Source of the DNA: a virus
Direction: 5' to 3' (one strand)
Virus genome (UHGV): UHGV-1946849
Length of the DNA stretch: 11,494 nt
Shown here one piece after another: positions 5 through 11,494 of the stretch. Made by a program: the position numbers and the translations under genes. The notes below the pieces were generated by a model. That model saw only the letters and a program-made list of their open reading frames with translations. It was not told where the DNA came from and did not search any database. How positions within the stretch are numbered: the stretch's first letter is position 1; every line of letters begins with the position of its first letter.

Positions 5-81
5 CTAGCGAATCACTCTTTAAAGAGCGAGAAAAAAGGCATGGAACAATATTTTATGCCTTTGTATTAACATGAATTTAA
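5..81. repeat. Left attachment-site direct repeat (attL candidate)
   Basis: 77 bp identical base for base to 11418..11494; identity breaks sharply at position 4 versus 11417. Contains a 7-bp stem inverted repeat AAGGCAT/ATGCCTT. Confidence 0.8.
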
Positions 82-213
82 AAGATTTTATTCTTACTGT
101 TTCATTTTCTGTAAATCATATATCCTCAGTATTTGACATTCATCACTCTAGCGGGAACAATACGACACAATAAGACACCTGATGACTCTTTAAGAAACGA
201 AAGGGGGGCAATA

Positions 214-402
214 GTGTTAAGCACTGATCGGTTTATACGTGAAAAAGAATGCGAAAAACTAACCGGCCTTAGCCGTACGTGTCGCTACCGCCTGGAAAAG
301 GCCGGACAATTCCCATCACGTCGTAAACTTGGCGGTCGTTCCGTTGGCTGGTCTTTATCCGAGGTTCTGGCCTGGAAGGATAGCTGCAAGGCAGTTCATT
401 AA
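214..402 (+). CDS. alpA: AlpA-family winged-helix transcriptional regulator / excisionase-like protein (62 aa from GTG 214; the track ORF extends to TTG 133)
   Basis: Translation RFIREKECEKLTGLSRTCRYRLEKAGQFPSRRKLGGRSVGWSLSEVLAW aligns with E. coli CP4-57 AlpA as recalled. GTG at 214 follows the Shine-Dalgarno AAGGGGGG (201..208); the upstream TTG at 133 lies inside a TTGACA hexamer. Confidence 0.8.
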   Translation: MLSTDRFIREKECEKLTGLSRTCRYRLEKAGQFPSRRKLGGRSVGWSLSEVLAWKDSCKAVH

Positions 403-547
403 TCACGCTGGCGGCACGCAGCCGCCACACATCAATCATCTGAACACAGAGCTATAACCATGAAGATTGAATATACGCCAGAACGTGGGCGGGGATTCGT
501 TCGCCCTGGTGAAACTGAAAAACAACAAAATTGGGGTTTTTCAGGTA

Positions 548-582
548 TAAAAAAAGCGGCCCCGAAATGGAGCCGCCTTTCT
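548..582 (-). terminator. Hairpin terminator, mainly for the leftward operon, possibly bidirectional
   Basis: A-run 548..555, stem GCGGC 556..560 and GCCGC 572..576, then CTTTCT; on the minus strand the stem is followed by TTTTTTT. Confidence 0.45.
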
Positions 583-671
583 GAACAGATAACCCGCTGC
601 GCCGTTTGTGTGTGTGATCCCAAACATAAGCACGGGGATGATAGCCGTTATCAGGCTGGTGGGCAATGCAA

Positions 672-845
672 TCAGTCTGGTTCAGTTCGTTGCCATACCT
701 GCAATGAGCGCTTTTCCCTGTACTCTTTAAGGAATTGCTCAAGGGCAAAAGCACATGGCGCGAATCTTTCTGATTCATGCTCTATCTTTCTGCGCCGTCT
801 TTTCCGTGCCGGTGATAATGTTTTGGTCAATTCTTTATCGGTCAT
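672..845 (-). CDS. Hypothetical small basic protein (57 aa), second gene of the leftward operon
   Basis: Minus-strand ORF with AGGA 7 nt upstream of the ATG at 845; protein-like K/R/E-rich sequence MTDKELTKTLSPARKRRRRKIEH...; followed by the 548..582 terminator. The track start at 860 lacks a ribosome-binding site. Confidence 0.35.
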   Translation of the reverse strand: MTDKELTKTLSPARKRRRRKIEHESERFAPCAFALEQFLKEYREKRSLQVWQRTEPD

Positions 846-902
846 TGTGTTGTCCTGCATAGCAATGCGCCGTAATACCTTACACCACGGCGCTGATGGT
901 GA

Positions 903-1082
903 TTACTCTGGTTCTTTGGCCTTGCGCCGCTGGCGATATTCAACTTCTCGTTTTAATGCCGCAGTAACAAATTGCCCCGTACTTTCGCCAGGCATTTTTA
1001 CCGCCTCAACATTGTTCATAACTTCATGCGGAACCCTTGCCGCAACGGTTTGTGATTTTGCGTTTACCGCTTTTGTCGCCAT
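903..1082 (-). CDS. Ribbon-helix-helix (Arc/CopG-like) DNA-binding protein, 59 aa, candidate repressor
   Basis: Hand translation of the minus strand gives MATKAVNAKSQTVAARVPHEVMNNVEAVKMPGESTGQFVTAALKREVEYRQRRKAKEPE. It shows the R-V-P-x-E-V strand, helix, G-x-S-T turn, helix pattern; GAGGGG ribosome-binding site 8 nt upstream. Below the 60-aa cutoff, so absent from the ORF track. Confidence 0.5.
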   Translation of the reverse strand: MATKAVNAKSQTVAARVPHEVMNNVEAVKMPGESTGQFVTAALKREVEYRQRRKAKEPE

Positions 1083-1132
1083 GTGGTGTACCCCTCATAA
1101 AAAACAAATGCAGTATGCAGGAAAAAAAATAA

Positions 1133-1184
1133 GTGTTCAACACTTGACGTGTTTAACACCTGGGTTTAAATTGGTGTTCAACAC
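1133..1184. promoter_or_regulatory. Divergent promoter region with three palindromic operators GTGTT(C/T)AACAC
   Basis: 11-bp palindromes at 1133..1143, 1149..1159 and 1174..1184. Rightward -35 TTGACG at 1144..1149 and -10 TAAATT at 1167..1172 (17-bp spacer); operators overlap the -35 and the predicted start. Confidence 0.55.
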
Positions 1185-1281
1185 CTTGTTGGCGCAAGGT
1201 GCAGAAACGACGAAACCCGGCAGTGCGCTAACACTAACCGGGCTTCTAACCACCAACGATAGCGAAAGTATCGAGGTAGCT

Positions 1282-1482
1282 ATGAGAAATCATACCACAC
1301 ACCCGCAAGGGCGGGACTCGCACAACCTGAATAAATACATCTGGCGTTTTATCGCCCTGAGCACGGCACAACCGCGCGTGATTACCATTGAGGCCACCAG
1401 CGAACAGGAAGCACGCCAGCAATCTCCGGCTGGCTGCGTGATGGTATTTGCTGCCCGTATTCGTCAGGGGGTAGGCTTATGA
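1282..1482 (+). CDS. Hypothetical protein (66 aa), first gene of the rightward operon
   Basis: ATG at 1282 preceded by GAGGT; its stop overlaps the next start (ATGA). It is the 3' part of the 460..1482 track ORF, whose upstream portion looks non-coding. Confidence 0.4.
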   Translation: MRNHTTHPQGRDSHNLNKYIWRFIALSTAQPRVITIEATSEQEARQQSPAGCVMVFAARIRQGVGL

Positions 1483-1709
1483 GCCAGGAAATCACACTAC
1501 AACAGGCAGCAGAACGCGCCCACCAAATCGAAGTTATTTGCGCACTGGCAGAGGATTACCCTGGCATGATGACCGACAGCGAATCAGGGGCAATCATCGG
1601 CTTACTTAAACGCCTTAGCGGTGAGGTCTGCGTATTCCTGAGCGATGAACAGGAAAGAAGAACGCTTATTTCTAACGAAAAAAAATGCGGAGGGGTACAT
1701 GTGCAATAA
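1479..1709 (+). CDS. Hypothetical protein (76 aa)
   Basis: ATG with upstream GGGGGTAGG; start overlaps the upstream stop; same strand as the operon. Confidence 0.5.
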   Translation: MSQEITLQQAAERAHQIEVICALAEDYPGMMTDSESGAIIGLLKRLSGEVCVFLSDEQERRTLISNEKKCGGVHVQ

Positions 1710-1920
1710 AACCACACCGGACGCAGCCGCCGCCGCGCTCACTACGCTGATGCACGCGCTTATTGATATTTCTGTTATTGCTGACAGGGCGCATAAACAC
1801 GCAGCCAGAGAATCAGAATGCATCTTCCATTTAGCATTTGTGCAGCTAAAAGCCGATCAGGCACTGGATAAGGCCGGAAAAATTATCATGGCTGATGTGC
1901 AGGAGGTGCACCATGCATAA
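1699..1920 (+). CDS. Hypothetical protein (73 aa from ATG 1699; the track ORF starts at 1645)
   Basis: ATG 1699 follows GGAGGGG (1689..1695) with a 3-nt spacer; no recognisable motif. Confidence 0.45.
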   Translation: MCNKTTPDAAAAALTTLMHALIDISVIADRAHKHAARESECIFHLAFVQLKADQALDKAGKIIMADVQEVHHA

Positions 1921-2278
1921 TCTGTCAATTTCTGACCTTAACAGCATTCAGTTTGATGAGAAATTTACCGGGCAGTTGCTGGTCAATGTGGAGAACGGGC
2001 GCATAGTGCGTAATTATCACCTGCCGGATGGTGCAATTGCCGGAAGCGTTGAAGCATTGCTGGAACTGGCGGAACGTGCGCGACTGATTAAGCCGTCAAC
2101 GAGCCATCACGATGATGATCTGCATTTTACCGGATGTATGGTGAGTCACTACGAAAACGGCGTCGAGGTATCCTGTGAACGGCTGCGTGATGATTGCTGT
2201 TTCGGCACACTGCCGGAATTTATCGAGTTGCTGACCAGTTGCGGTTATCAGGTCATTCAGGGGGGTAAACATGCGTGA
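1913..2278 (+). CDS. Hypothetical protein (121 aa from ATG 1913; the track ORF starts at 1895)
   Basis: AGGAGG ribosome-binding site 6 nt upstream of ATG 1913; overlaps the preceding stop. Confidence 0.5.
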   Translation: MHNLSISDLNSIQFDEKFTGQLLVNVENGRIVRNYHLPDGAIAGSVEALLELAERARLIKPSTSHHDDDLHFTGCMVSHYENGVEVSCERLRDDCCFGTLPEFIELLTSCGYQVIQGGKHA

Positions 2279-2504
2279 TGATCGTTTTAATTCCCTGAAA
2301 CAGGAATTTTCCGGCGTTCCTGATGATGCGGCTGATGCGCTTTCGTCAATGCCAGAACTTATTAGAGCGGCTTTTTTCTTACTTTCCACGAGAGAATATA
2401 AATCAACGGGGCTTGATGTACTGAATATCGCCGCCGATTATGCGGAATATGTGGCAGAGGCGCGTTATAGAAGAAAATTTCCTGAGGATGTAAGCCATGC
2501 GTGA
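2271..2504 (+). CDS. Hypothetical protein (77 aa)
   Basis: ATG after GGGGGGTAAAC; ATGCGTGA start/stop overlap with the upstream gene. Confidence 0.5.
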   Translation: MRDDRFNSLKQEFSGVPDDAADALSSMPELIRAAFFLLSTREYKSTGLDVLNIAADYAEYVAEARYRRKFPEDVSHA

Positions 2505-2730
2505 TATTTACCACGAAACAATAGACCGCGCATTTCTTGCACTTTCTCACAGTGAAAACATGCTGGAAATATTGCGCATATGGCTTGAAACACTTGGCGA
2601 CAATGAACGCGACAAACAAAAATCAAGAATTGCCACGGCATTAATAACGCTTCTTGAGCCTGTAATAATGGAACTGCAAGAAATAGATCTATTGCACGAC
2701 AGATATAAAGAACAGCACACCGGAGAATAA
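2497..2730 (+). CDS. Hypothetical protein (77 aa)
   Basis: Same ATGCGTGA overlap junction as at 2271; acidic, helical-looking sequence. Confidence 0.5.
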   Translation: MRDIYHETIDRAFLALSHSENMLEILRIWLETLGDNERDKQKSRIATALITLLEPVIMELQEIDLLHDRYKEQHTGE

Positions 2731-2735
2731 AAATA

Positions 2736-3035
2736 ATGAAACTTAAATATTCTGGCTTAACTGCCAGTGGCAACACTCACCCTAAATTTACGCGCGGCGA
2801 TATTTACCGCGACCAGTACGGCGGCACGGTAATGATTAAGGGCGTGGAAGAACGGCGCGTAACCTACCGCCGTGAAGGTTACGAATATGATTGCGTGATG
2901 CCTGTTTATCAGTTCCGGCGTGATTTTTCTCTGGTACAGACCGCGCCGCATAACGTGTCCACCAGCAACGCCAGGGCACGGGCAAACATCCAGAAGCTGA
3001 AAACCATGATTAACGGATTCAGGGGTAAAAAATGA
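2736..3035 (+). CDS. Hypothetical protein (99 aa) immediately upstream of and coupled to the primase gene
   Basis: GGAGA ribosome-binding site; stop overlaps the primase ATG (ATGA). Confidence 0.55.
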   Translation: MKLKYSGLTASGNTHPKFTRGDIYRDQYGGTVMIKGVEERRVTYRREGYEYDCVMPVYQFRRDFSLVQTAPHNVSTSNARARANIQKLKTMINGFRGKK

Positions 3036-4786
3036 AACTGGCACCGAACGTAAAACAGCAGTCACGCGGCATAAAACACAAAGAAACAGAAGTCATTATT
3101 TTTGCGGGTAGTGATGCCTGGTCACACGCAAAACAATGGCAGGGACATGACGCGCGTATGGCCGGAGATAATGAGCCTCCTGTGTGGCTTGGGGAGCAGC
3201 AGTTATCCGAACTGGATAAGCTGCAAATTGTGCCGGAAGGCAGAAAATCCGTGCGCATATTCAGGGCCGGATATCTTGCGCCAGTAATGATAAAGGCGAT
3301 TGGTCAGAAGCTGGCGGCGGCAGGCGTACAGGATGCAAATTTTTACCCTGATGGTATGCACGGTCAGAAGGTGGAGAACTGGCGCGAATATCTGGCCCGT
3401 GAGCGCCAGAATCTTTCTGATGGTCTGGTCATTGAGCTTCCGGTAAAGCAAAAGGCGCAACTTTCGCAGATGGCGGACAGTGAGCGCGCGCAGCTGCTTG
3501 CCGATCGCTTTGATGGCGTTTGCGTACATCCTGAAAGTGAAATCGTTCACGTATGGCGCGGCGGGGTATGGTGTCCGGTCAGCACAATGGAACTTAGCCG
3601 CGAAATGGTGGCGATCTATTCAGAGCACAGGGCCACTTTCAGCAAGCGCGTAATCAATAACGCCGTGGAAGCGTTAAAAGTTATTGCCGAACCAATGGGC
3701 GAGCCGTCCGGCGATTTGTTGCCGTTCGCCAATGGTGCGCTTGACCTGAAAACGGGGGAATTTTCCCCGCACACGCCGGAGAACTGGATCACCACGCACA
3801 ACGGCATTGAGTACACGCCACCAGCACCAGGGGAGAACATCCGCGATAACGCGCCAAACTTTCATAAATGGCTTGAGCACGCAGCCGGAAAAGACCCGCG
3901 CAAGATGATGCGTATATGTGCCGCGCTGTACATGATTATGGCGAACCGGTACGACTGGCAGATGTTTATTGAGGCCACCGGAGACGGCGGGAGCGGTAAA
4001 AGTACATTCACACACATAGCCAGCCTTCTGGCAGGGAAACAGAACACGGTAAGCGCTGAAATGACATCGCTTGATGATGCTGGTGGACGTGCGCAGGTTG
4101 TCGGGAGTCGTCTTATCGTCCTGGCTGACCAGCCGAAATATACAGGCGAAGGAACGGGCATCAAGAAAATCACGGGCGGTGACCCCGTGGAAATTAACCC
4201 GAAATACGAAAAGCGTTTCACGGCGGTAATCAGGGCGGTGGTGCTGGCGACCAACAATAACCCGATGATATTCACCGAACGGGCCGGAGGTGTGGCACGT
4301 CGTCGCGTGATTTTCCGTTTCGACAATATCGTCAGTGAGGCCGAAAAAGACAGGGAGCTACCGGAAAAGATCGCGGCTGAAATCCCTGTCATTATCCGCC
4401 GATTGCTGGCGAACTTTACCGACCCTGAGAAGGCACGGGCTTTACTACTGGAACAGCGTGACGGTGATGAAGCTCTGGCAATAAAGCAACAGACGGATCC
4501 GGTTATTGAGTTTTGCCAGTTCCTGAATTTTCTGGAGGAAGCACGCGGCCTGATGATGGGCGGCGGTGGCGATTCAGTGAAGTACACGACCAGAAACAGC
4601 CTTTACCGCGTCTATCTGGCGTTTATGGCGTACGCAGGCAGGAGCAAACCGCTAAACGTAAATGACTTTGGCAAGGCTATGAAGCCAGCCGCGAAAGTTT
4701 ACGGACATGAATATATTACGCGGAAAGTTAAGGGAGTAACGCAGACTAACGCAATAACAACAGACGAGTGCGACGCGTTTTTATAA
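3032..4786 (+). CDS. Replication protein: P4-family primase C-terminal domain / D5-N plus SF3 helicase (584 aa)
   Basis: Walker A GDGGSGKST, a D5-N-like segment LPFANGALDLKTGEF...NGIEY and an SF3 motif C VVLATNNNP; size and layout match Pri-Rep proteins of P4-like elements and PICIs. Confidence 0.88.
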   Translation: MKLAPNVKQQSRGIKHKETEVIIFAGSDAWSHAKQWQGHDARMAGDNEPPVWLGEQQLSELDKLQIVPEGRKSVRIFRAGYLAPVMIKAIGQKLAAAGVQDANFYPDGMHGQKVENWREYLARERQNLSDGLVIELPVKQKAQLSQMADSERAQLLADRFDGVCVHPESEIVHVWRGGVWCPVSTMELSREMVAIYSEHRATFSKRVINNAVEALKVIAEPMGEPSGDLLPFANGALDLKTGEFSPHTPENWITTHNGIEYTPPAPGENIRDNAPNFHKWLEHAAGKDPRKMMRICAALYMIMANRYDWQMFIEATGDGGSGKSTFTHIASLLAGKQNTVSAEMTSLDDAGGRAQVVGSRLIVLADQPKYTGEGTGIKKITGGDPVEINPKYEKRFTAVIRAVVLATNNNPMIFTERAGGVARRRVIFRFDNIVSEAEKDRELPEKIAAEIPVIIRRLLANFTDPEKARALLLEQRDGDEALAIKQQTDPVIEFCQFLNFLEEARGLMMGGGGDSVKYTTRNSLYRVYLAFMAYAGRSKPLNVNDFGKAMKPAAKVYGHEYITRKVKGVTQTNAITTDECDAFL

Positions 4787-4800
4787 TTTTTTGTAATTGC

Positions 4801-5026
4801 TGTCTACCCTGTCTACCTGAGTAAAGAAAAATACATTTAATTCAGTGCATTAAGTTAGGTAGATAGCCTTTTTTTACTGTCTACCCACTATCTACCCTCT
4901 CTACCTGATTTTACCTGAATCAGACAGGGAGGTAGACACGGGGTAGATAGTGGATAAAAGCACTCTACCCCGCTGAAAGCCGCGCCATTACTGGTATGAG
5001 GGCCACTAAGGTAGATAAGGTAGACA
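4801..5026. repeat. Iteron cluster, candidate replication origin / cis replication region
   Basis: At least 11 copies of (G/T)TCTACC(C) in both orientations (forward at 4802, 4811, 4879, 4890, 4900, 4964; reverse GGTAGA at 4858, 4931, 4942, 5010, 5019), non-coding, directly downstream of the primase gene. Confidence 0.6.
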
Positions 5027-5074
5027 AGGGGAGGCACAACTCAAAACTTTTTAAACGAGGGGGTAAAAATAAAT

Positions 5075-5353
5075 ATGCACACTTCAGGGAAATTTAATAA
5101 ATCACTCAAAAAACGCAGAGACAGAACAGAACCGAAATATCGCGCGTTAGACATGACAGAGCACGCTTTAAAGGTGGCAATCAGAACGATAGACCGCCAC
5201 GCGGGGGAAGGATACGCGAAAGCACATCCCGAACTGATAAGCGCATTCATGACCACGACGGCGGCAAATTTTGCCACGCTGACAGAGCGGGAGATTGCCG
5301 AAGCGGAACAGGTAACAACCATCAACGTTAAAACCGGAGAGGTGGAATCATGA
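5075..5353 (+). CDS. Hypothetical protein (92 aa), coupled to the ssb-like gene
   Basis: GAGGGGG ribosome-binding site upstream; stop overlaps the next ATG (ATGA). Confidence 0.55.
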   Translation: MHTSGKFNKSLKKRRDRTEPKYRALDMTEHALKVAIRTIDRHAGEGYAKAHPELISAFMTTTAANFATLTEREIAEAEQVTTINVKTGEVES

Positions 5354-5772
5354 CAGCACAGATAGCAGCTTACGGGCGGCTGGTGGACGACCCGCAGGTA
5401 AAACAGACCAGCAAGGGCACACCGATGACGCTGGCGCGTATGGCGGTCCCCCTTCCGTGCAGCCAGGCAGATGACGGAACGGCGACGATGTGGTTATCCG
5501 TCCTGGCATTTGGCAGACAGGCCGAAGCACTGGAAAGGCACCGCAAGGGTGAACTCCTGAGCGTGGCGGGTAACATGCAGATCAGCCAGTGGACTGGGCA
5601 GAACGGAGAAACGCGGCAGGGCTGGCAGGTTATCGCAGACAGTGTAATCAGTGCGCGAACGGCGCGACTGGGCGGCAAAAAAGGTCAACAGGGCCAGGCT
5701 ACTGACGCGCTGAACAGGGCAAAACAACAGGCGGGGAATGATGATCCGTACGGGGATAACATACCGTTTTAA
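5350..5772 (+). CDS. ssb: Single-stranded DNA-binding protein homologue (140 aa)
   Basis: OB-fold segment WLSVLAFGRQAEALERHRKGELLSVAGNMQISQWTGQNGETRQGWQVIADSV aligns with E. coli SSB [52 protein letters not shown]; Gly/Gln-rich linker; C-terminal DDPYGDNIPF resembles the SSB acidic tip DDDIPF. Confidence 0.8.
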   Translation: MTAQIAAYGRLVDDPQVKQTSKGTPMTLARMAVPLPCSQADDGTATMWLSVLAFGRQAEALERHRKGELLSVAGNMQISQWTGQNGETRQGWQVIADSVISARTARLGGKKGQQGQATDALNRAKQQAGNDDPYGDNIPF

Positions 5773-5787
5773 GCGACGAGTGACAGA

Positions 5788-5811
5788 AGCCGGAGCAATC
5801 CGGCTTTTTTA
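5788..5811 (+). terminator. Rho-independent terminator after the ssb-like gene
   Basis: Stem GCCGGA (5789..5794), loop GCAA, stem TCCGGC (5799..5804), then TTTTTT. Confidence 0.7.
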
Positions 5812-5860
5812 CGGGTCCTCCTGGCGGGGTGGGCCTGAACACGGGGCGGGAAGCGCGGAA
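5811..5860 (+). other. Degenerate cos-like relic (cosQ-like with a disrupted cosN)
   Basis: ACGGGTCCTCCTGG...ACGGGGCGGGAAGCGCGG parallels the intact copy at 8253..8300 (ACGGGTCCTTTCCGG...ACGGGGCGGCGACCTCGCGG), and the preceding terminator hairpin is duplicated too. Confidence 0.5.
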
Positions 5861-5990
5861 AAAAGCGCATTTTTGTGATTTTATCGTCATCATCATCATG
5901 AGCGTAATTTATTGTTTTTAATTGTTTTGATGCAAAAAAGATGATGGTTGTGGTTAATTTTCGTTCGACATCTTTGCAGGCAGATAAAAA

Positions 5991-6027
5991 AGCCCGATAA
6001 GGTCAGAGGTGGCTTATCGGGCTTTTG
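5991..6027. terminator. Strong hairpin, bidirectional terminator-like
   Basis: Perfect 11-bp inverted repeat AGCCCGATAAG / CTTATCGGGCT with an 11-nt loop, flanked by an A-run upstream and TTTT downstream. Confidence 0.5.
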
Positions 6028-6103
6028 CATATGAGGCTTTTTGGTGCACTGACACACATGAGCGGGATCATCATTTCATAATTTGCAACACAACTCAATA
6101 TCA

Positions 6104-6152
6104 TTGCACAAAACGCAATCCTGATTATAATCAGAGCTGGATGAACATCCAG
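6104..6152 (+). promoter_or_regulatory. Candidate sigma-70 promoter of the capsid operon with a 16-bp palindrome at the predicted start
   Basis: -35 TTGCAC (6104..6109), 16-bp spacer, -10 TATAAT (6126..6131); perfect palindrome CTGGATGAACATCCAG at 6137..6152. Confidence 0.5.
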
Positions 6153-6187
6153 TTATGATTTTTTAAGTCGAAGAGGAATTTCTTACT

Positions 6188-6394
6188 ATGGCTGAAGAGA
6201 AAAAAGGCGGTGTTTCGGTGTACATAAGCCCCGAAATCGTGGAGGTGCTCAAGCAGCGCCACAAAAAAAACTATGAGGCTGGCGTGGCGGCTGGACTGGA
6301 TCCGCTGATGACGCCGGAGCCGTCGATAGGTTCACTTGTACGCTCTTATTTACTTGCGGCGCTTGGGATGCATAAAAATTATGGGGGTGAATAA
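6188..6394 (+). CDS. Hypothetical small protein (68 aa) translationally coupled to the capsid gene
   Basis: AAGAGGA ribosome-binding site; stop TAA overlaps the capsid ATG (TAATG). Confidence 0.6.
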   Translation: MAEEKKGGVSVYISPEIVEVLKQRHKKNYEAGVAAGLDPLMTPEPSIGSLVRSYLLAALGMHKNYGGE

Positions 6395-7449
6395 TGGCAG
6401 GCAAAGCAACGGCACTTAACACTAACCAGCTTTTCATGTACCTGAATCGCGGGGATATTGCGGATTTTAAATTCAGCCCTCTGTTTACTACGCTGTTTTT
6501 CCCGAACGTGGCGACATTCAGCACGCAAAACATCATGCTGGATACCCTGGACATTGAAGAAGTCACCATGTCGGCGTTTTGTTCGCCTATGGTGGGTAGC
6601 CAGGTTCAGCGCGATAAAGGGTACGAAACCAGCACGATTAAACCTGGCTACATGAAGCCAAAGCACGAAATCGATCCAACGAAAACCATCATGCGCATGG
6701 CTGGAGAAGATCCGGCACAGCTTAACGACCCTACCTATCGCCGTATGCGCCTGATTACTGGCAATATGCGCCGCCAGATAAACGCCATAAAAGCGCGCGT
6801 GGAATGGCTGGCGGTAAATGCGGTAACGACCGGAAAAAACATCATTGAGGGCGAAGGCATAGAGCGCTATGAAATCGACTGGAAGATACCGGAAAAAAAC
6901 ATCATAGAGCAGGCCGACGGGAAAAAATGGTCAGCGCAGGACAAAGAAACCCACGATCCAATCTATGATATCGAACTATACGCCGATCAGGCTGGTTGCC
7001 CCGCAAACGTCATGATTATGGGCGCTGAGGTATGGCGAACGTTACGCAGCTTTAAAAAATTCCGTGAGCTGTACGATCTTTCCCGTGGTTCAGAATCCGC
7101 CGCCGAACTGGCCTGTAAAAACCTGGGCGAAGTGGTGAGCTTTAAAGGCTATCTTGGTGATCTGGCCCTTATCGTCTATTCCGGCAAATACACTGACAGC
7201 GATGGTACCGAAAAATATTTCCTTGAGCCTGATTTGCTGGTCCTAGGTAACACCAACAATAAAGGGCTGGTGGCCTATGGTGCGATAATGGATCAGGAAG
7301 CGGTAAGAACGGGCGCAACACAAAACATGTTTTACCCGAAAAACTGGATTGAGGACGGCGATCCGGCGATTGAGTACGTGCAGACACACAGTGCACCGCA
7401 GCCGGTACCGGCAGATATTCGCAAATTTGTTACCGTCAAAATTGGTTAA
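6394..7449 (+). CDS. Major capsid protein, lambda gpE-like (351 aa)
   Basis: Colinear similarity to lambda E as recalled: FSPLF..LFF, KPGYMKPKHEIDP, DPTYRRMR, GSESAAELACKNLGEVVSFKGYLGDLALIVYSGKYTD, LVLGNT, YPKNW, GDPA. Confidence 0.9.
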   Translation: MAGKATALNTNQLFMYLNRGDIADFKFSPLFTTLFFPNVATFSTQNIMLDTLDIEEVTMSAFCSPMVGSQVQRDKGYETSTIKPGYMKPKHEIDPTKTIMRMAGEDPAQLNDPTYRRMRLITGNMRRQINAIKARVEWLAVNAVTTGKNIIEGEGIERYEIDWKIPEKNIIEQADGKKWSAQDKETHDPIYDIELYADQAGCPANVMIMGAEVWRTLRSFKKFRELYDLSRGSESAAELACKNLGEVVSFKGYLGDLALIVYSGKYTDSDGTEKYFLEPDLLVLGNTNNKGLVAYGAIMDQEAVRTGATQNMFYPKNWIEDGDPAIEYVQTHSAPQPVPADIRKFVTVKIG

Positions 7450-7461
7450 CGGGGGGATTCT

Positions 7462-7797
7462 ATGGACACTCCATACATTGAGTTATTTGCAGGCAGTCAG
7501 CGGGTCGCCACGACGCTGGTACATTTTGCCGCTGATGCTGGCGTTATTCAGGAATTTACCCCGCTGATGCTGGCAGACAATGGCGAGTTTAAGCCGTGGG
7601 ATGGTCAGGAATCTGGCAAGGCTGTTTATCTGACCTCGTACCCTGTGGACACGTCAAAGCAGAAATCAGCACAGTGTTACAAGACGGGGATTTTCAATAT
7701 TGCCGCCGTTAACTGGCCTGAGAGCGTCGACACCGATGCGAAAAAATGCGCCGCCTTTGCGGGTTCCGGCGTATCCGTTCAGCCGCTGGCCCGATAA
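7462..7797 (+). CDS. Head decoration protein, lambda gpD-like (111 aa)
   Basis: FTPLMLAD, WDG, YKTGIFN, WPES and KKCAAFAGSG match the lambda D motifs TPLMLDT, WDG, YKSGTFR, WPEA and KKRTAFAGT. Confidence 0.82.
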   Translation: MDTPYIELFAGSQRVATTLVHFAADAGVIQEFTPLMLADNGEFKPWDGQESGKAVYLTSYPVDTSKQKSAQCYKTGIFNIAAVNWPESVDTDAKKCAAFAGSGVSVQPLAR

Positions 7798-7809
7798 GCA
7801 GGGGGAACG

Positions 7810-8223
7810 ATGGCAACGAATGAAAGCGTCATGACGCTACCGCTGGCGAGTAAATTTAAAGCCGAAGCGCGGGCAATGGCTGACAGAGGTTTATCAACCT
7901 ACGAGGCCGTATATCAACTCAACAAACTGGAAGAGCAGGACAAGCCGCGCGCTGATGCGATTATGGCGCTTCATGAACATAACGACTATCAGCCGCTGTT
8001 ACGTGCAATGGCAAACGTGCCATGTATTAGCGTCGATAATGCTCGTGAAATCCTGAACATGACCATAGAGCAGGAGCGCCCAAAGGTTGCGCCGGAGCTT
8101 ACCGCAGCCTTTGAAAACTTTATGGACATGCACAGCCCGAAAGCCGTATCACCCGGCATGGCATACGACGGCAGAAACCAGGGCGATGAAGGCGACGTCG
8201 ATCGCATACTGAAAACCATCTGA
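7810..8223 (+). CDS. Hypothetical protein (137 aa), last gene of the capsid operon
   Basis: GGGGGAA ribosome-binding site; followed by the terminator at 8229..8252. Confidence 0.6.
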   Translation: MATNESVMTLPLASKFKAEARAMADRGLSTYEAVYQLNKLEEQDKPRADAIMALHEHNDYQPLLRAMANVPCISVDNAREILNMTIEQERPKVAPELTAAFENFMDMHSPKAVSPGMAYDGRNQGDEGDVDRILKTI

Positions 8224-8228
8224 CATAA

Positions 8229-8252
8229 GGCCGGAGAAATCCGGCTTTTTTT
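8229..8252 (+). terminator. Rho-independent terminator
   Basis: Stem GCCGGA (8230..8235), loop GAAA, stem TCCGGC (8240..8245), then TTTTTTT; near-identical to the terminator at 5788..5811. Confidence 0.7.
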
Positions 8253-8310
8253 ACGGGTCCTTTCCGGCATATGGACCCGTTACGGGGCGGCGACCTCGCG
8301 GGTTTTCGCT
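8253..8310 (+). other. Lambda-type cos site (cosQ and cosN with the 12-nt cohesive end GGGCGGCGACCT at 8285..8296) with a truncated cosB
   Basis: ACGGGTCCTTTCCGG...GTTACGGGGCGGCGACCTCGCGGGTTTTCGCTATTTATGA matches the lambda cos junction as recalled; it then diverges to CGTTTTTCCGTG, and the Nu1-like gene starts only about 90 bp downstream. Confidence 0.85.
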
Positions 8311-8385
8311 ATTTATGACGTTTTTCCGTGAAGGTGACACCACCACCACTTGATTAATATTTAACCATGCAGTTAAGGTAACATT

Positions 8386-8820
8386 ATGATTGATAAAGCT
8401 TGTTTTGTAAGTCAGCAGGAAATAGCTGAACATTTCAAGGTTAACAGAACCACTATTCGCGCATGGACCAAACAGGGGATGCCGTATCTTAATGCGGATC
8501 GCGGAAAGTCTGGCGGTTATCACATCGGGCATACATTGCTTTGGTCTTCAGGTAAAAGCCGTCTTGAGACCATCAGATATCACGTAGAAACCAGTGCGCT
8601 GGAAAAAATTATGTTTGCCAGGCTGCTTTCATCTGAGCGTGACGAGTACTCCAGTGAAGAAACAGAACATCGATTTGATGAAGGTTTGCAGATTTACGGC
8701 TATTCACCGGAAGATGTGAGCAAGGCACGAAATAAAATGGCTGGCTTTCTGGCTGGGTGGCGTCATGCCATAAGCGTTCGCCGTGCCAGCATGGAGCAAT
8801 CAGCCGATACAGAACAGTAA
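8386..8820 (+). CDS. Small terminase (lambda Nu1)-like protein, candidate Rpp-type packaging-redirection factor (144 aa)
   Basis: N-terminus VSQQEIAEHFKVNRTTIRAWTKQGMPYLNADRGKSGGYHIGHTLLWSSGKS aligns with lambda Nu1 VNKKQLADIFGASIRTIQNWQEQGMPVLRGGGKGNEVLYDSAAVIKWYAER; no large terminase gene follows. Confidence 0.78.
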   Translation: MIDKACFVSQQEIAEHFKVNRTTIRAWTKQGMPYLNADRGKSGGYHIGHTLLWSSGKSRLETIRYHVETSALEKIMFARLLSSERDEYSSEETEHRFDEGLQIYGYSPEDVSKARNKMAGFLAGWRHAISVRRASMEQSADTEQ

Positions 8821-8887
8821 AGCCGATAACTTGTTAATCACTCGCAGCAATGCATGTGATTTGTGCACACTTTCGGTTAACTGGTTC

Positions 8888-9066
8888 GATGTCCGGTTTT
8901 AGTGTCTGTTTTTTGCGCATGTCCGGTTCATGGAAAGCATGTTTTTATATTTTTCATATGGTTAACTTGCAGAGAAACCGGACATGGATCCCGAAAAATT
9001 TTCATAAATAGTGAAAACGCGCGAGGTCGCCGCCCCGTAACGGGCCATAATTCCAGGAAGGACCCG
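8888..9066 (-). other. Second lambda-type cos site in inverted orientation, with a distinct cosB made of three ATGTCCGGTT elements
   Basis: Reverse complement of 9001..9066 reads ACGGGTCCTTCCTGG...GTTACGGGGCGGCGACCTCGCGCGTTTTCACTATTTATGAA (cohesive end at 9024..9035); R-like elements at 8889..8898, 8919..8928 and inverted at 8976..8985, with an AT-rich spacer between. Confidence 0.75.
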
Positions 9067-9099
9067 ACGACACCAGACTATCAGAGCGATGGGGGCACA

Positions 9100-9381
9100 A
9101 TGACAGAAGCCGAACTACTGGGATTAATCCGCCGCGTTACCGGAATCAGCCAGCAGCATGACGAACAGGCCACGCAGCCGGACAGCGTGACCGCCGAAAA
9201 TTACGCGCGTGTGGTTGCTGAGGTGATGCGCCGTGATGGTATCCAGCTTAATGATGTGGATATGCGCAACATACGGATCCGCGTTCTTGAAATGCTGGCC
9301 TACAATCGCCGCGTGGCACTGTATCGGGAAACGGAGAAAATTACGTACCACTGGAAGAAGCCGGAGCGGTTACGGCGTTAA
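9100..9381 (+). CDS. Hypothetical protein (93 aa from ATG 9100; the track ORF starts at 8902 inside the cos sequence)
   Basis: ATG 9100 preceded by GGGGG; upstream in-frame sequence is the inverted cos site. Confidence 0.5.
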   Translation: MTEAELLGLIRRVTGISQQHDEQATQPDSVTAENYARVVAEVMRRDGIQLNDVDMRNIRIRVLEMLAYNRRVALYRETEKITYHWKKPERLRR

Positions 9382-9397
9382 CGAGTAGCGACATACC

Positions 9398-9556
9398 GTG
9401 ACGGAGAGTGACAACCAGTGACACGCCGTGACAAAAGACGGTTTAACCGTTAATTAAAAATTGACGGGATTTTGTGCTTTCCGGACGACGTGACCAACGT
9501 CATTTTTTAGCGAAAAGTTCTGATTAAGGTCATTGTCTGAATGGTCATAATGACCA
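9398..9556. promoter_or_regulatory. Array of GTGAC-family binding-site repeats
   Basis: Four GTGAC copies at exactly 10-bp phasing (9398, 9408, 9418, 9428), an inverted pair GTGACCAACGTCAT (9490..9503), and the palindrome TGGTCATAATGACCA (9542..9556). Confidence 0.5.
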
Positions 9557-9717
9557 CTCCTACAAAACAGGTAAAGCCCACCAGCCTGATTAACAGTTAA
9601 CCGGAAAAAAAATCCGGTAGCCCCGTTATGGGGATCCCCATATCAACATTAACGCCCCTCATGAATTAGCGCGCTTCCCCCTGGAAAGATGACCCGCCTG
9701 TATATTTCTTGTGTCTA

Positions 9718-10012
9718 TTTGTTCCACGTTGTTTCATACAGTGCACCGAACGGTGTAGTCACTGGTGTAGTCATTTTGCGATTTATGGCACTTTTTGTAG
9801 TGCAAATCATTTAATTAAATCAATGCGTTAAGTGAAATTAGTTATATATAACAGCATTTTATCATTTAGTGTTTTTTGCTGTTTCATAATGTTTCAGGCT
9901 GTGCATTATGTTTTTGATTATCAACAGATTTGTGATTTTCCTTGTTCCAGCTTGTTTCACGTTGTAGCCCTTTGTGCAACGATCGGTGTAGTCACTGGTG
10001 TAGTCACTTTTT
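9718..10012. repeat. Duplicated element of about 60 bp upstream of int, each copy ending in tandem GGTGTAGTCA repeats
   Basis: CGGTGTAGTCACTGGTGTAGTCA at 9751..9773 and 9984..10006 with similar upstream context, flanking an AT-rich stretch of about 200 bp. Confidence 0.6.
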
Positions 10013-10031
10013 CGTAAAGAGGGGGTAAAAC

Positions 10032-11261
10032 GTGAGCAGAGCAATGAACAAACTGAGCGATACCTTGCTAAGGAAACTTCATGGTAAGCCAGCGGAGAAA
10101 AACACGTTTTATAGTGATGGCGGAAACCTGAGCGTGAAATATTTAACATCAGGGAAATTGACCTGGTATTTCACATACAGGGCCGGAACGGGAAGGGAGA
10201 CACGACCCGAACGCATTAAGCTGGGAAGTTATCCTGATCTGAGCCTGAAAGCAGCCAGGGAAAAAGCCGCACAGTGTCGCACATGGCTGGCTGAGGGGAA
10301 AAATCCACGTCATGAGATGAATTACACCGTACAGGAAGCGTTAAAGCCCGTAACGGTTGGCGATGCGCTCACCTACTGGCTTGAGTATTACGTAAAGGAA
10401 AACCGCGTGGATTATATCGCCCTGAAAAGGCGACTTAATAATCACGTAATACAGCAGATTGGTGCTATGCCGCTGGATAAATGCGAGCTACGGCACTGGC
10501 TGGCCTGTTTTGACCAGGTGGTAAAGCGAACGCCTGTTACTGCCGGATTCGTGCTACAGGCGTGCAAACAGGCGCTTAAGTTCTGCCGTAGGCGGCGCTA
10601 TGCAATCAGCAACGTTCTGGACGATCTGAACGTTGCGGACGTTGGGAAAAAACCGGATATAAGCGAACGTGTCTTAAGTAACAAAGAACTTGGCGAATTA
10701 TTGCAGGCACTGGACAAAAAAATATTCTCCCCTTACTACGTCGCGTTAATCCGCCTCCTGATTGTCTTCGGAGCCAGAACGGTAGAACTGAGGTTATCGG
10801 AGATCGGGGAGTGGGATTTTACGGAAATGCTATGGACCGTTCCGAAGGAGCACAGCAAAACGAAGGTCGCAATATTCCGGCCCATACCGGAAGCGATCCT
10901 GCCGTTCGTCACGCAGCTGGTGGAGCAGAACAGGCACACGGGCTTATTGCTGGGGGAAGTGAAACAGGAGGCCAGCGTATCGCAGTATGGAAGATTAGCG
11001 CACAGGAGGCTTAATCACCCTCACTGGTCACTGCATGACATCCGGCGCACCTTTACAACCATGCTGAACGATTTAGGCGTTGATCCGCATGTCGTGGAGC
11101 AGCTTACAGGCCACCAGATGCCAGGAATGCAGCGAGTTTATAATCATTCCCGTTATCTGGATGCGAAACGCAATGCGCTGGATATGTGGACGGAGCGGTT
11201 AGGGATACTGGCGGGAACACATGAAAACGTAACCACGCTACCCGTAGCCAGAAGAAAATAA
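10032..11261 (+). CDS. int: Tyrosine recombinase, P4-type integrase with N-terminal arm-binding domain (409 aa)
   Basis: N-terminal arm-binding-domain pattern (DGGNLSVKYLTSGKLTWYFTYR...IKLGSYPDLSLKAAREKA); catalytic region with R..HDIRRT..LTGH..Y residues; GTG start after GAGGGGG. Confidence 0.93.
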   Translation: MSRAMNKLSDTLLRKLHGKPAEKNTFYSDGGNLSVKYLTSGKLTWYFTYRAGTGRETRPERIKLGSYPDLSLKAAREKAAQCRTWLAEGKNPRHEMNYTVQEALKPVTVGDALTYWLEYYVKENRVDYIALKRRLNNHVIQQIGAMPLDKCELRHWLACFDQVVKRTPVTAGFVLQACKQALKFCRRRRYAISNVLDDLNVADVGKKPDISERVLSNKELGELLQALDKKIFSPYYVALIRLLIVFGARTVELRLSEIGEWDFTEMLWTVPKEHSKTKVAIFRPIPEAILPFVTQLVEQNRHTGLLLGEVKQEASVSQYGRLAHRRLNHPHWSLHDIRRTFTTMLNDLGVDPHVVEQLTGHQMPGMQRVYNHSRYLDAKRNALDMWTERLGILAGTHENVTTLPVARRK

Positions 11262-11278
11262 TTTTTTTCGTGTTTTTT

Positions 11279-11355
11279 CAGTATGCGCATACTGGATATG
11301 CGAACAGATACAACGTGCAACAATGAGCAACAATGTGGAACAACTACGAACAAGA
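11279..11355. promoter_or_regulatory. Candidate integrase arm-type / accessory sites next to the right repeat
   Basis: Perfect 16-bp palindrome CAGTATGCGCATACTG (11279..11294) and (C/G)AACAA repeats at about 10-bp phasing (11302..11355, including GCAACAATG twice). Confidence 0.4.
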
Positions 11356-11417
11356 GGCGAAAAAGCGTACGGATTTATAAGTAGCTGATTTTTAATGTGT
11401 TACTGGTTTTTTGTACA

Positions 11418-11494
11418 CTAGCGAATCACTCTTTAAAGAGCGAGAAAAAAGGCATGGAACAATATTTTATGCCTTTGTATTAACATGAATTTAA
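11418..11494. repeat. Right attachment-site direct repeat (attR candidate)
   Basis: Identical to 5..81; the window ends at the repeat end, so the identity could extend further. Confidence 0.8.

What the first reader, a model, noticed from the sequence alone, without database searches (positions are those of the whole stretch)
5350..5772. Satellite-encoded SSB with an altered C-terminal tip
A clear SSB OB-fold with Gly/Gln-rich linker ends in DDPYGDNIPF rather than DDDIPF. The tip is the interaction hub for host replication and repair proteins, so a variant tip could retarget partners or sequester helper or host factors during satellite replication.
Basis: partly seen in the sequence, partly recalled or inferred. 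Interest (0 to 1): 0.45.

Follow-up and report, generated by a model that had tools for sequence, protein, structure and literature searches.

The report
Ordinary SSB gene of a phage satellite
The ORF is a real single-stranded-DNA-binding protein in the replication module of a well-known E. coli phage satellite (an EcCICFT073-type PICI); its C-terminal tip is a mild, lineage-wide variant that keeps the residues needed to dock host replication proteins, so the finding is correct but ordinary.

Summary
Window 5350-5772(+) encodes a 140-aa SSB: the OB fold is confirmed by Pfam, TIGR00621, PDB sequence hits and an AlphaFold model matching only SSB structures. It has a disordered tail ending DDPYGDNIPF.

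The window is a circularly permuted, 11.4-kb EcCICFT073-like PICI. The ssb gene lies just downstream of the primase-helicase and a nine-copy iteron origin. It is translationally coupled to a small unknown ORF and followed by a strong terminator.

The same SSB clade occurs in about 30% of complete E. coli genomes, always in PICI or cf-PICI replication modules. It sits next to three unrelated replicase types and is under purifying selection (dN/dS 0.1-0.2).

Aligned without gaps to E. coli SSB (PMDFDDDIPF), the tip keeps Ile-Pro-Phe-COOH, Asp at -5 and the aromatic at -7. Three Asp become Pro, Gly and Asn, and two Asp appear upstream.

I read it as a satellite-supplied replication SSB that still docks host partners. 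Retargeting is neither shown nor excluded. SSB in Gram-negative PICI replication modules is already in the literature and in RefSeq, so interest is low. The only mildly unusual features are a hypervariable -4 residue and divergent tips (PPYDDDF) in related satellites.

The parts
5350..5772 (+). ssb CDS, 140 aa plus stop; identical to RefSeq WP_000126681.1, annotated 'single-stranded DNA-binding protein'
5350..5658 (+). OB-fold ssDNA-binding core (residues 1-103)
   Evidence: pLDDT about 90 and SSB-only fold matches; W48, F54 and W81 align to E. coli SSB W54, F60 and W88
5659..5739 (+). Short, basic, disordered linker (residues 104-130) carrying the family motif R-x-GGKKGQQGQATDALNRA
   Evidence: pLDDT below 50; composition; motif conserved across genera but deleted in the 136-aa EcCICFT073 form
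5740..5769 (+). C-terminal tip DDPYGDNIPF (residues 131-140)
   Evidence: D136, P139 and F140 invariant in 136 clade sequences; N137 hypervariable
5337..5346 (+). Shine-Dalgarno-like GGAGAGGTGG upstream of the ssb start
   Evidence: read from the sequence
5075..5353 (+). orf92, a small helical protein of unknown function (phrog_1231); its stop overlaps the ssb start (ATGA), so the two are probably translationally coupled
   Evidence: conserved upstream of ssb in D5-primase islands
4801..5026 (.). Replication origin: nine GGTAGAYA iterons in both orientations around A+T-rich stretches
   Evidence: All 9 window matches fall here, against 0.32 expected; repeats; the same nine iterons lie between the primase gene and orf/ssb in EcCICFT073, and Fillol-Salom 2018 place GN-PICI origins immediately 3' of the replication gene and tested EcCICFT073 pri-ori (PMC6092414)
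3032..4786 (+). Island primase-helicase (D5_N + DUF5906 + Pox_D5)
5780..5812 (+). Intrinsic terminator-like hairpin plus U-run closing the replication operon
   Evidence: -18.3 kcal/mol, z = -4.4, 0 of 200 shuffles as stable

Best explanation
This is the replication-module SSB of an EcCICFT073-type phage-inducible chromosomal island. When a helper phage induces the island, the early operon (alpA ... DUF4222, primase-helicase, ori, orf92, ssb, terminator) is transcribed.

Shown: the protein has a standard OB fold, three of the four stacking aromatics, and a disordered tail.

Inferred: it coats the ssDNA exposed when the island's primase-helicase opens the adjacent iteron origin. Its Ile-Pro-Phe-COOH tip, with Asp at -5 and an aromatic at -7, still fits the hydrophobic pocket and basic lip shared by host SSB-interacting proteins, chiefly the chi subunit of Pol III. 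The host polymerase can then replicate the island.

The island's own copy adds SSB capacity when helper and satellite both replicate heavily. It is helpful rather than essential. This last point is inferred from the EcCICFT073 pri-ori fragment driving plasmid replication on host SSB alone.

The PYGDN-for-DFDDD changes are a lineage-typical, lower-charge variant. They probably tune affinity without changing the partner set.
For: - SSB identity and fold.
- Position: ssb starts 324 bp after the last iteron of an origin that lies right after the primase gene. No terminator-like site on the coding strand was found between the primase gene and ssb, and a strong hairpin follows ssb.
- The order replicase, small ORF, ssb recurs in cf-PICIs, in E/D-capsid PICIs and in capsid-less PICIs.
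- In a survey of 158 loci, 78 carried a D5-type and 47 a DUF927-type replicase.
- Functional constraint: dN/dS is 0.08-0.20 overall. There are no nonsynonymous tip changes among relatives about 90% identical, despite synonymous ones. D136, P139 and F140 are invariant in 136 sequences.
- The tip keeps IPF, Asp at -5 and an aromatic at -7. The literature identifies these as the required or affinity-determining elements.
- The identical tip occurs with unrelated replicases.
- PMC10111431 already places SSB in the PICI replication category, co-localised with mapped origins.
- EcCICFT073 pri-ori replicates in DH5alpha.
Against: - No experiment on any PICI SSB was found.
- Three of the four Asp in the terminal octapeptide are lost, so its net charge is -1 against -4. 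Binding to host partners could be much weaker.
- Tips differ between genera although all hosts share DDDIPF. A purely host-docking role does not predict this.
- Tetramerisation and ssDNA binding are inferred from homology only.
- I did not check whether the cloned EcCICFT073 pri-ori fragment excluded ssb.
Confidence: 0.72

Rival explanations
1. Retargeted tip. The clade-specific DDP[YF]GD-x-IPF tail has evolved to recruit an element-encoded or helper-encoded partner (island primase-helicase, orf92, or a helper recombination or replication protein) rather than host SSB-interacting proteins. This would parallel phage HK620 SSB, whose NDYPPF tip recruits its cognate Sak4.
For: - The proximal motif DDP[YF]G is conserved in the clade and differs from the outgroup's PFDD.
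- orf92 is translationally coupled to ssb.
- The precedent of HK620 SSB-Sak4 depends on the last six residues (PMC5928155).
- Tips diverge between genera while host tips do not.
Against: - The same tip sits next to unrelated replicases and different upstream ORFs.
- The distal IPF-COOH, the part seen bound in partner structures, is unchanged.
- The island encodes no recombinase.
- The orf92 model is of low confidence and has no fold match.
Confidence: 0.13
2. Decoy or arms-race SSB. The protein mainly acts on conflict. It could sequester host nucleases or helicases (ExoI, RecQ, RecJ) away from satellite or helper DNA, or its tip could diversify to avoid SSB-sensing defence systems. The -4 position would then be under diversifying selection.
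For: - Residue 137 is the second most changeable column of the protein: 24 inferred changes against a mean of 4.7.
- It takes N, G, S or E on otherwise identical 14-residue tails.
- Related satellites have radically different tips, PPYDDDF and SIPL.
- Phage SSB-like proteins with an FDDDIPF tip are reported triggers of DRT10 (bioRxiv 10.64898/2026.04.29.721553).
Against: - Position -4 is also the least constrained tip position in the outgroup: E18, D13, P12, A10. Relaxed constraint explains the pattern.
- The Fitch counts are inflated by tail swapping between OB backbones.
- The gene sits in the replication operon, not among accessory or defence genes.
- No experimental link exists.
Confidence: 0.1
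3. Decaying or passenger gene with no current function.
For: Some database entries are truncated or frameshifted. The EcCICFT073 pri-ori fragment replicates with host factors.
Against: - dN/dS is 0.1-0.2.
- The full-length ORF is conserved, and the gene matches 1649 of 5426 complete E. coli genomes.
- OB-core residues and the terminal D..PF are invariant.
Confidence: 0.03

Closest known systems
SSB of the model Gram-negative PICI EcCICFT073 (WP_000126698.1, NC_004431.1 1384538-1384948)
   Same: Same gene slot: DUF4222, D5-type primase, nine GGTAGAYA iterons, small ORF, ssb. The island DNA is 94-96% identical over most of its length. The OB core is nearly identical and the tip is DDPYGDDIPF.
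   Different: 72% protein identity overall. The CFT073 protein is 136 aa, has a different linker (GGNRRKTTGTQGNQPPAGG), and has Asp rather than Asn at -4. DNA similarity breaks inside ssb at the OB/linker border. CFT073 has a PerC gene after ssb; the window has a terminator instead.
E. coli chromosomal SSB (PF00436 / TIGR00621; PDB 1EYG, 1EQQ, 4MZ9)
   Same: OB fold, W54/F60/W88 equivalents, a disordered tail, terminal Ile-Pro-Phe, Asp at -5 and an aromatic at -7.
   Different: 27% identity. 140 aa against 178 aa. The linker is half as long, basic and without Pro or PxxP. W40 is replaced by Cys and His55 by Leu. The octapeptide is PYGDNIPF against DFDDDIPF, charge -1 against -4.
Phage HK620 SSB, which works with its cognate Sak4 annealase (PMC5928155)
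   Same: An SSB encoded by a mobile element of E. coli, with a non-canonical acidic tip ending Pro-Phe (NDYPPF) that is required for partner recruitment.
   Different: HK620 SSB is a distant homologue encoded next to a recombinase. The PICI has no recombinase, its SSB sits in a replication module, and it keeps Ile-Pro-Phe.
SSBs of conjugative plasmids and phages such as F and P1 (from my own knowledge, not tested here)
   Same: Extra SSB copies carried by mobile elements. They are generally thought to supplement host SSB and can complement ssb mutants.
   Different: As I recall, those carry the canonical DDDIPF tip. No close relative of the PICI clade exists in the phage collection (best 32% identity). 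Plasmid hits above 60% identity, where inspected, were PICI-like elements.

Membership tests
Bacterial homotetrameric SSB family (Pfam PF00436 / TIGR00621) | Sequence match to the family profiles above the curated thresholds | tested here: met
   PF00436 55.9 bits (cutoff 26); TIGR00621 59.4 bits (cutoff 53.95)
Bacterial homotetrameric SSB family (Pfam PF00436 / TIGR00621) | N-terminal OB fold of about 100 residues | tested here: met
   AF2 model residues 1-103, pLDDT about 90; the listed Foldseek PDB hits are all SSB OB domains, target-normalised TM 0.63-0.81
Bacterial homotetrameric SSB family (Pfam PF00436 / TIGR00621) | Aromatic ssDNA-stacking residues (E. coli SSB W40, W54, F60, W88) | tested here: met
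   W48, F54 and W81 align to W54, F60 and W88 and are invariant in the clade; W40 is replaced by a nearly invariant Cys37. Three of four are kept.
Bacterial homotetrameric SSB family (Pfam PF00436 / TIGR00621) | Intrinsically disordered linker followed by an acidic tip ending hydrophobic-Pro-Phe | tested here: met
   Residues 104-140 have pLDDT below 50. The tip DDPYGDNIPF ends Ile-Pro-Phe and has three Asp. It departs from DFDDDIPF at three Asp positions.
Bacterial homotetrameric SSB family (Pfam PF00436 / TIGR00621) | Tetramer formation, cooperative ssDNA binding, and binding of host SSB-interacting proteins through the tip | not testable with these tools
   Needs purified protein (EMSA, AUC, ITC or FP with tip peptides). 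His55 of E. coli SSB is Leu here, which says nothing decisive.
Gram-negative phage-inducible chromosomal island (PICI), EcCICFT073 type | Gene order int, alpA, primase/rep, ori, small late/packaging module; about 10-15 kb; no tail or lysis genes | tested here: met
   The island is 11.4 kb and flanked by split tqsA in NZ_CP028320.1.
Gram-negative phage-inducible chromosomal island (PICI), EcCICFT073 type | Iteron origin immediately 3' of the replicase gene | tested here: met
   Nine GGTAGAYA copies at 4801-5026, against 0.32 expected. The same motif count lies at the equivalent position of EcCICFT073, and PMC6092414 places GN-PICI origins immediately 3' of the replication gene.
Gram-negative phage-inducible chromosomal island (PICI), EcCICFT073 type | Direct sequence relatedness to the experimentally characterised island | tested here: met
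   blastn gives 93.6-97% identity over about 7.5 kb of EcCICFT073.
Gram-negative phage-inducible chromosomal island (PICI), EcCICFT073 type | Helper-phage-dependent induction, replication and packaging | not testable with these tools
   Shown for EcCICFT073 with lambda and phi80 (PMC6092414), not for this island. The window's circular permutation fits an excised form.

The most novel reading that the evidence does not exclude
The tails of PICI SSBs may be fast-evolving specificity modules rather than a fixed host-docking peptide. Three observations fit this: a hypervariable -4 residue flanked by invariant Asp, Pro and Phe; tail swapping at the OB/linker border; and tips in sister satellites that drop Ile-Pro altogether (PPYDDDF). 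Such tails could select which host genome-maintenance enzymes are recruited or excluded on satellite ssDNA. Alternatively they could let the satellite escape defence systems that sense foreign SSBs.
Probability: 0.12. Interest if true: 0.55.

Novelty: already known. Interest (0 to 1): 0.18.

Why it matters
As it stands, the result mainly tidies the annotation. The gene is the replication SSB of a very common E. coli satellite family, and the 'altered tip' is not evidence of a new function.

No PICI SSB has been studied experimentally in the literature I could search. If the tip variants were shown to change partner choice, PICI SSBs would offer a natural panel of SSB-Ct variants (DNIPF, DGIPF, DDIPF, DEIPF, SIPL, PPYDDDF) on nearly identical OB cores. 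That panel could be used to dissect how the SSB hub discriminates among its partners, and how satellites compete with helpers for replication resources.

Tried and rejected
- The search for related loci with a family alignment failed because no stretch was conserved enough. The single-protein scan of genome contigs gave only 6 loci, so I used IMG/VR instead.
- The terminator scan missed the hairpin after ssb. Direct folding showed it.
- The first PHROG call had a wrong frame for orf93 and was repeated.
- Rfam found nothing in the window.
- orf92 had no Pfam hit, a narrow family that is all 'hypothetical' or unnamed, an AF2 model with pLDDT 66.5 and no PDB fold match. Its function remains unknown.
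- The literature search for P4 alpha in vitro requirements (SSB plus Pol III) found nothing usable, so I make that analogy from memory only.
- Searches for any experimental work on PICI SSBs were negative.
- I considered minus-strand ORFs under ssb (5348-5530, 5370-5678, 5494-5727) and rejected them as mechanical, given the strong coding signal on the + strand.
- I considered acquisition of the SSB from a phage. No phage in the collection exceeds 32% identity.
- 'Plasmid' hits turned out to be PICIs or a mis-assigned chromosomal segment.

Full report
**Observation.** The + strand ORF 5350-5772 encodes 140 aa ending DDPYGDNIPF. A GGAGAGGTGG ribosome-binding site precedes it, and its ATG overlaps the TGA of the upstream ORF (ATGA).
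- Pfam SSB: E=4.9e-15, 55.9 bits against a cutoff of 26.
- TIGR00621: 59.4 bits against a cutoff of 53.95.
- PHROG 44: E=3.3e-37.
- PDB sequences: 33 matches at E<=1, nearly all SSBs (the two weakest are RPA32), best 3.9e-11.
- An AlphaFold2 model built on 36 family sequences has a confident OB barrel at residues 1-103 (pLDDT about 90) and a disordered tail at 104-140. All 50 listed Foldseek PDB hits are SSB OB domains.
- Aligned with E. coli SSB (27% identity), W54, F60 and W88 are conserved as W48, F54 and W81. W40 is Cys and His55 is Leu.

The linker is about 28 aa, basic (+5), rich in Gly, Gln and Ala, and without proline. That is half the length of the host linker. Two qualifications apply: the linker is not host-like, and the tip is not an insertion variant.

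**The tip.** It aligns without gaps to the host decapeptide: PMDFDDDIPF against DDPYGDNIPF.
- Kept: Ile-Pro-Phe-COOH, Asp at -5 (host D174) and the aromatic at -7 (host F172, here Tyr).
- Changed: D171, D173 and D175 become Pro, Gly and Asn.
- Two Asp appear at -10 and -9.
- Charge: the decapeptide is -3 against -4, and the octapeptide is -1 against -4.

Partner structures resolve only the distal IPF or DIPF segment. IPF is required, and the Asp residues and Phe172 modulate affinity (PMC10143822; PMC3159472; PMC3632105). The essential determinants are therefore retained and the affinity-tuning ones are partly changed.

**Genomic context.** The window is a circular permutation of an 11.4-kb island inserted in tqsA of E. 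coli O18:H1 CFSAN067215. The junction is at window 9848-9856, and identity is 99.9%. The gene order is:
- int (10032-11261)
- alpA (133-402)
- small ORFs
- DUF4222
- D5_N/DUF5906 primase-helicase (3032-4786)
- a 288-bp spacer
- orf92
- ssb
- a hairpin terminator (-18.3 kcal/mol, z = -4.4)
- a lambda E-like major capsid gene, a gpD-like decoration gene, and a few small ORFs

All nine GGTAGAYA matches in the window lie at 4801-5026 (0.32 expected), in both orientations around A+T-rich DNA. This is the iteron-origin layout described for Gram-negative PICIs (PMC6092414).

The island is 94-96% identical at the DNA level to most of the model PICI EcCICFT073. That island has the same nine iterons and an SSB in the same slot: 136 aa, 72% identical, tip DDPYGDDIPF.

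**Distribution.**
- The ssb gene matches 1649 of 5426 complete E. coli genomes, with up to six copies per genome. The D5-type primase matches 1164.
- The protein search returned 603 relatives.
- No phage record exceeds 32% identity.
- The two plasmid hits I inspected are PICI-type elements: one in a mis-assigned chromosomal segment, one on a small Klebsiella replicon.

Neighbourhoods show the same cassette (replicase, small ORF overlapping the ssb start, ssb, often PerC) in several settings:
- capsid-forming PICIs with HK97 capsid, portal and terminase
- E/D-capsid PICIs like the window
- capsid-less PICIs with a DUF927 replicase and ProQ
- a Klebsiella element with a zinc-binding primase-helicase

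Among 158 loci, the identical tip DDPYGDNIPF occurs with both D5 and DUF927 replicases.

**Selection.** Pairwise dN/dS is 0.08-0.20 over the gene. Among relatives about 90% identical, the tip has synonymous but no nonsynonymous differences. In 136 clade sequences D136, P139 and F140 never change. N137 is the second most changeable column, with 24 inferred changes against a mean of 4.7.

That count is inflated by tail swapping. DNA similarity to EcCICFT073 breaks at codon ~102, the OB/linker border. Even so, N, G, S and E occur at -4 on otherwise identical 14-residue tails. In the nearest outgroup clusters the consensus tip is PFDD-x-[IL]PF, with -4 already the least constrained position: E18, D13, P12, A10. 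Relaxed constraint at -4 is therefore the economical reading.

**Mechanism.** The best-supported reading is a satellite-supplied replication SSB.
- Shown: fold, conservation, operon position next to the origin, and retention of the docking determinants.
- Inferred: it coats ssDNA made by the island primase-helicase and hands it to host Pol III through the chi-SSB tip contact.
- Also inferred: it supplements host SSB during simultaneous helper and island replication. This rests on the EcCICFT073 pri-ori fragment replicating a plasmid in DH5alpha. I could not verify the exact boundaries of that fragment.
- The analogy with P4 alpha-dependent replication using host SSB and Pol III comes from my own knowledge. 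The literature search for it failed.

**Rival explanations.**
- A tip retargeted to an island or helper partner. HK620 SSB (NDYPPF) and Sak4 provide a precedent. Against it, the same tip occurs with different replicases and different upstream ORFs.
- A decoy or arms-race role. This is suggested by the -4 variability, by divergent tips in sister satellites (PPYDDDF in 26 loci, SIPL in 9), and by reports that phage SSB-like proteins trigger defence systems. There is no direct support.
- Gene decay, which the purifying selection contradicts.

**Novelty.** The protein is an existing RefSeq entry annotated as SSB. PMC10111431 already lists SSB with primase and DUF5906 as the replication category of Gram-negative PICIs, co-localised with mapped origins. 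I found no functional study of a PICI SSB. The finding is therefore a correct reading of an already catalogued gene. The only mildly unusual aspects are the plasticity of the tail and a linker motif (RPGGKxGQQGQATDALxRA) that is conserved across genera yet deleted in the EcCICFT073 form.

Noticed in passing
window 9848-9856 (junction); whole window: The window is a circular permutation of the integrated island. Window 5-9856 maps to L001 4006-13857, and window 9848-11494 maps to L001 2436-4082, with a 9-bp overlap. This looks like an excised or circularised PICI. In the chromosome it splits tqsA.
   Followed up: partly
window 5654-5986 compared with L159 (EcCICFT073): DNA similarity to EcCICFT073 stops inside ssb at about codon 102, the OB/linker border, and resumes at 5986. 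The SSB tail and the downstream region have therefore been exchanged as a block. The PerC gene that follows ssb in EcCICFT073 is absent here and a terminator takes its place.
   Followed up: partly
window 5758-5760 (codon 137, Asn at -4 of the tip): This is the second most changeable residue of the whole protein in the clade (N71, D30, G20, E14, S1). It is flanked by invariant Asp136, Pro139 and Phe140. It varies N, G, S, E on otherwise identical 14-residue tails.
   Followed up: partly
L117, L127 and other IMG/VR loci (SSB 60-65% identical); L008-L012: Sister satellite SSBs, mostly next to DUF927 replicases, end in ...DQTPPYDDDF with no Ile-Pro (26 of 158 loci) or ...FDDSIPL (9 loci). Leclercia has ...PYDDQIPF. 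PICI SSB tips are far more diverse than chromosomal ones.
   Followed up: partly
window 5665-5721 (residues 106-124): The linker motif R-P-GGKxGQQGQATDALxRA is conserved from E. coli to Leclercia, Citrobacter and Klebsiella-type elements, and part of it is predicted helical at low confidence. It is entirely missing from the 136-aa form, including EcCICFT073. The window has Leu107 where at least 90% of relatives have Pro.
   Followed up: partly
window 5075-5353: orf92 (phrog_1231) is confined to E. coli and close relatives, and its stop overlaps the ssb start. It has an invariant core GYAK.HP.LISAFMTT.AANFATLTEREIAEAE. The AF2 model is helical (pLDDT 66.5) with no PDB fold match. Islands with other replicases have a different ORF in this slot.
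   Followed up: yes
window 7810-8223 and 8386-8820: orf137 matches only the C-terminal end of the head-maturation-protease PHROG (positions 495-567 of 583). In lambda this region corresponds to the Nu3 scaffold, so the island may encode capsid, decoration and scaffold-like proteins. The 144-aa HTH protein matches the N-terminus of small terminases.
   Followed up: no
L160 (CP088587.1, 'plasmid' pD17EC0246-3): A 32.6-kb record deposited as a plasmid carries the chromosomal genes pntB and mdtJ/mdtI, plus a capsid-forming PICI in the same tqsA site as the window's island. It is probably a mis-assigned or excised chromosomal segment. Different PICI types share this attachment site.
   Followed up: no
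window 5981-6042 and 6129-6160: Two further inverted repeats (21-nt arms, 86% complementary; 15-nt arms, 87%) lie in the 400-bp non-coding stretch between the ssb terminator and the capsid operon. They could be regulatory or cos-related sites. I did not analyse them.
   Followed up: no
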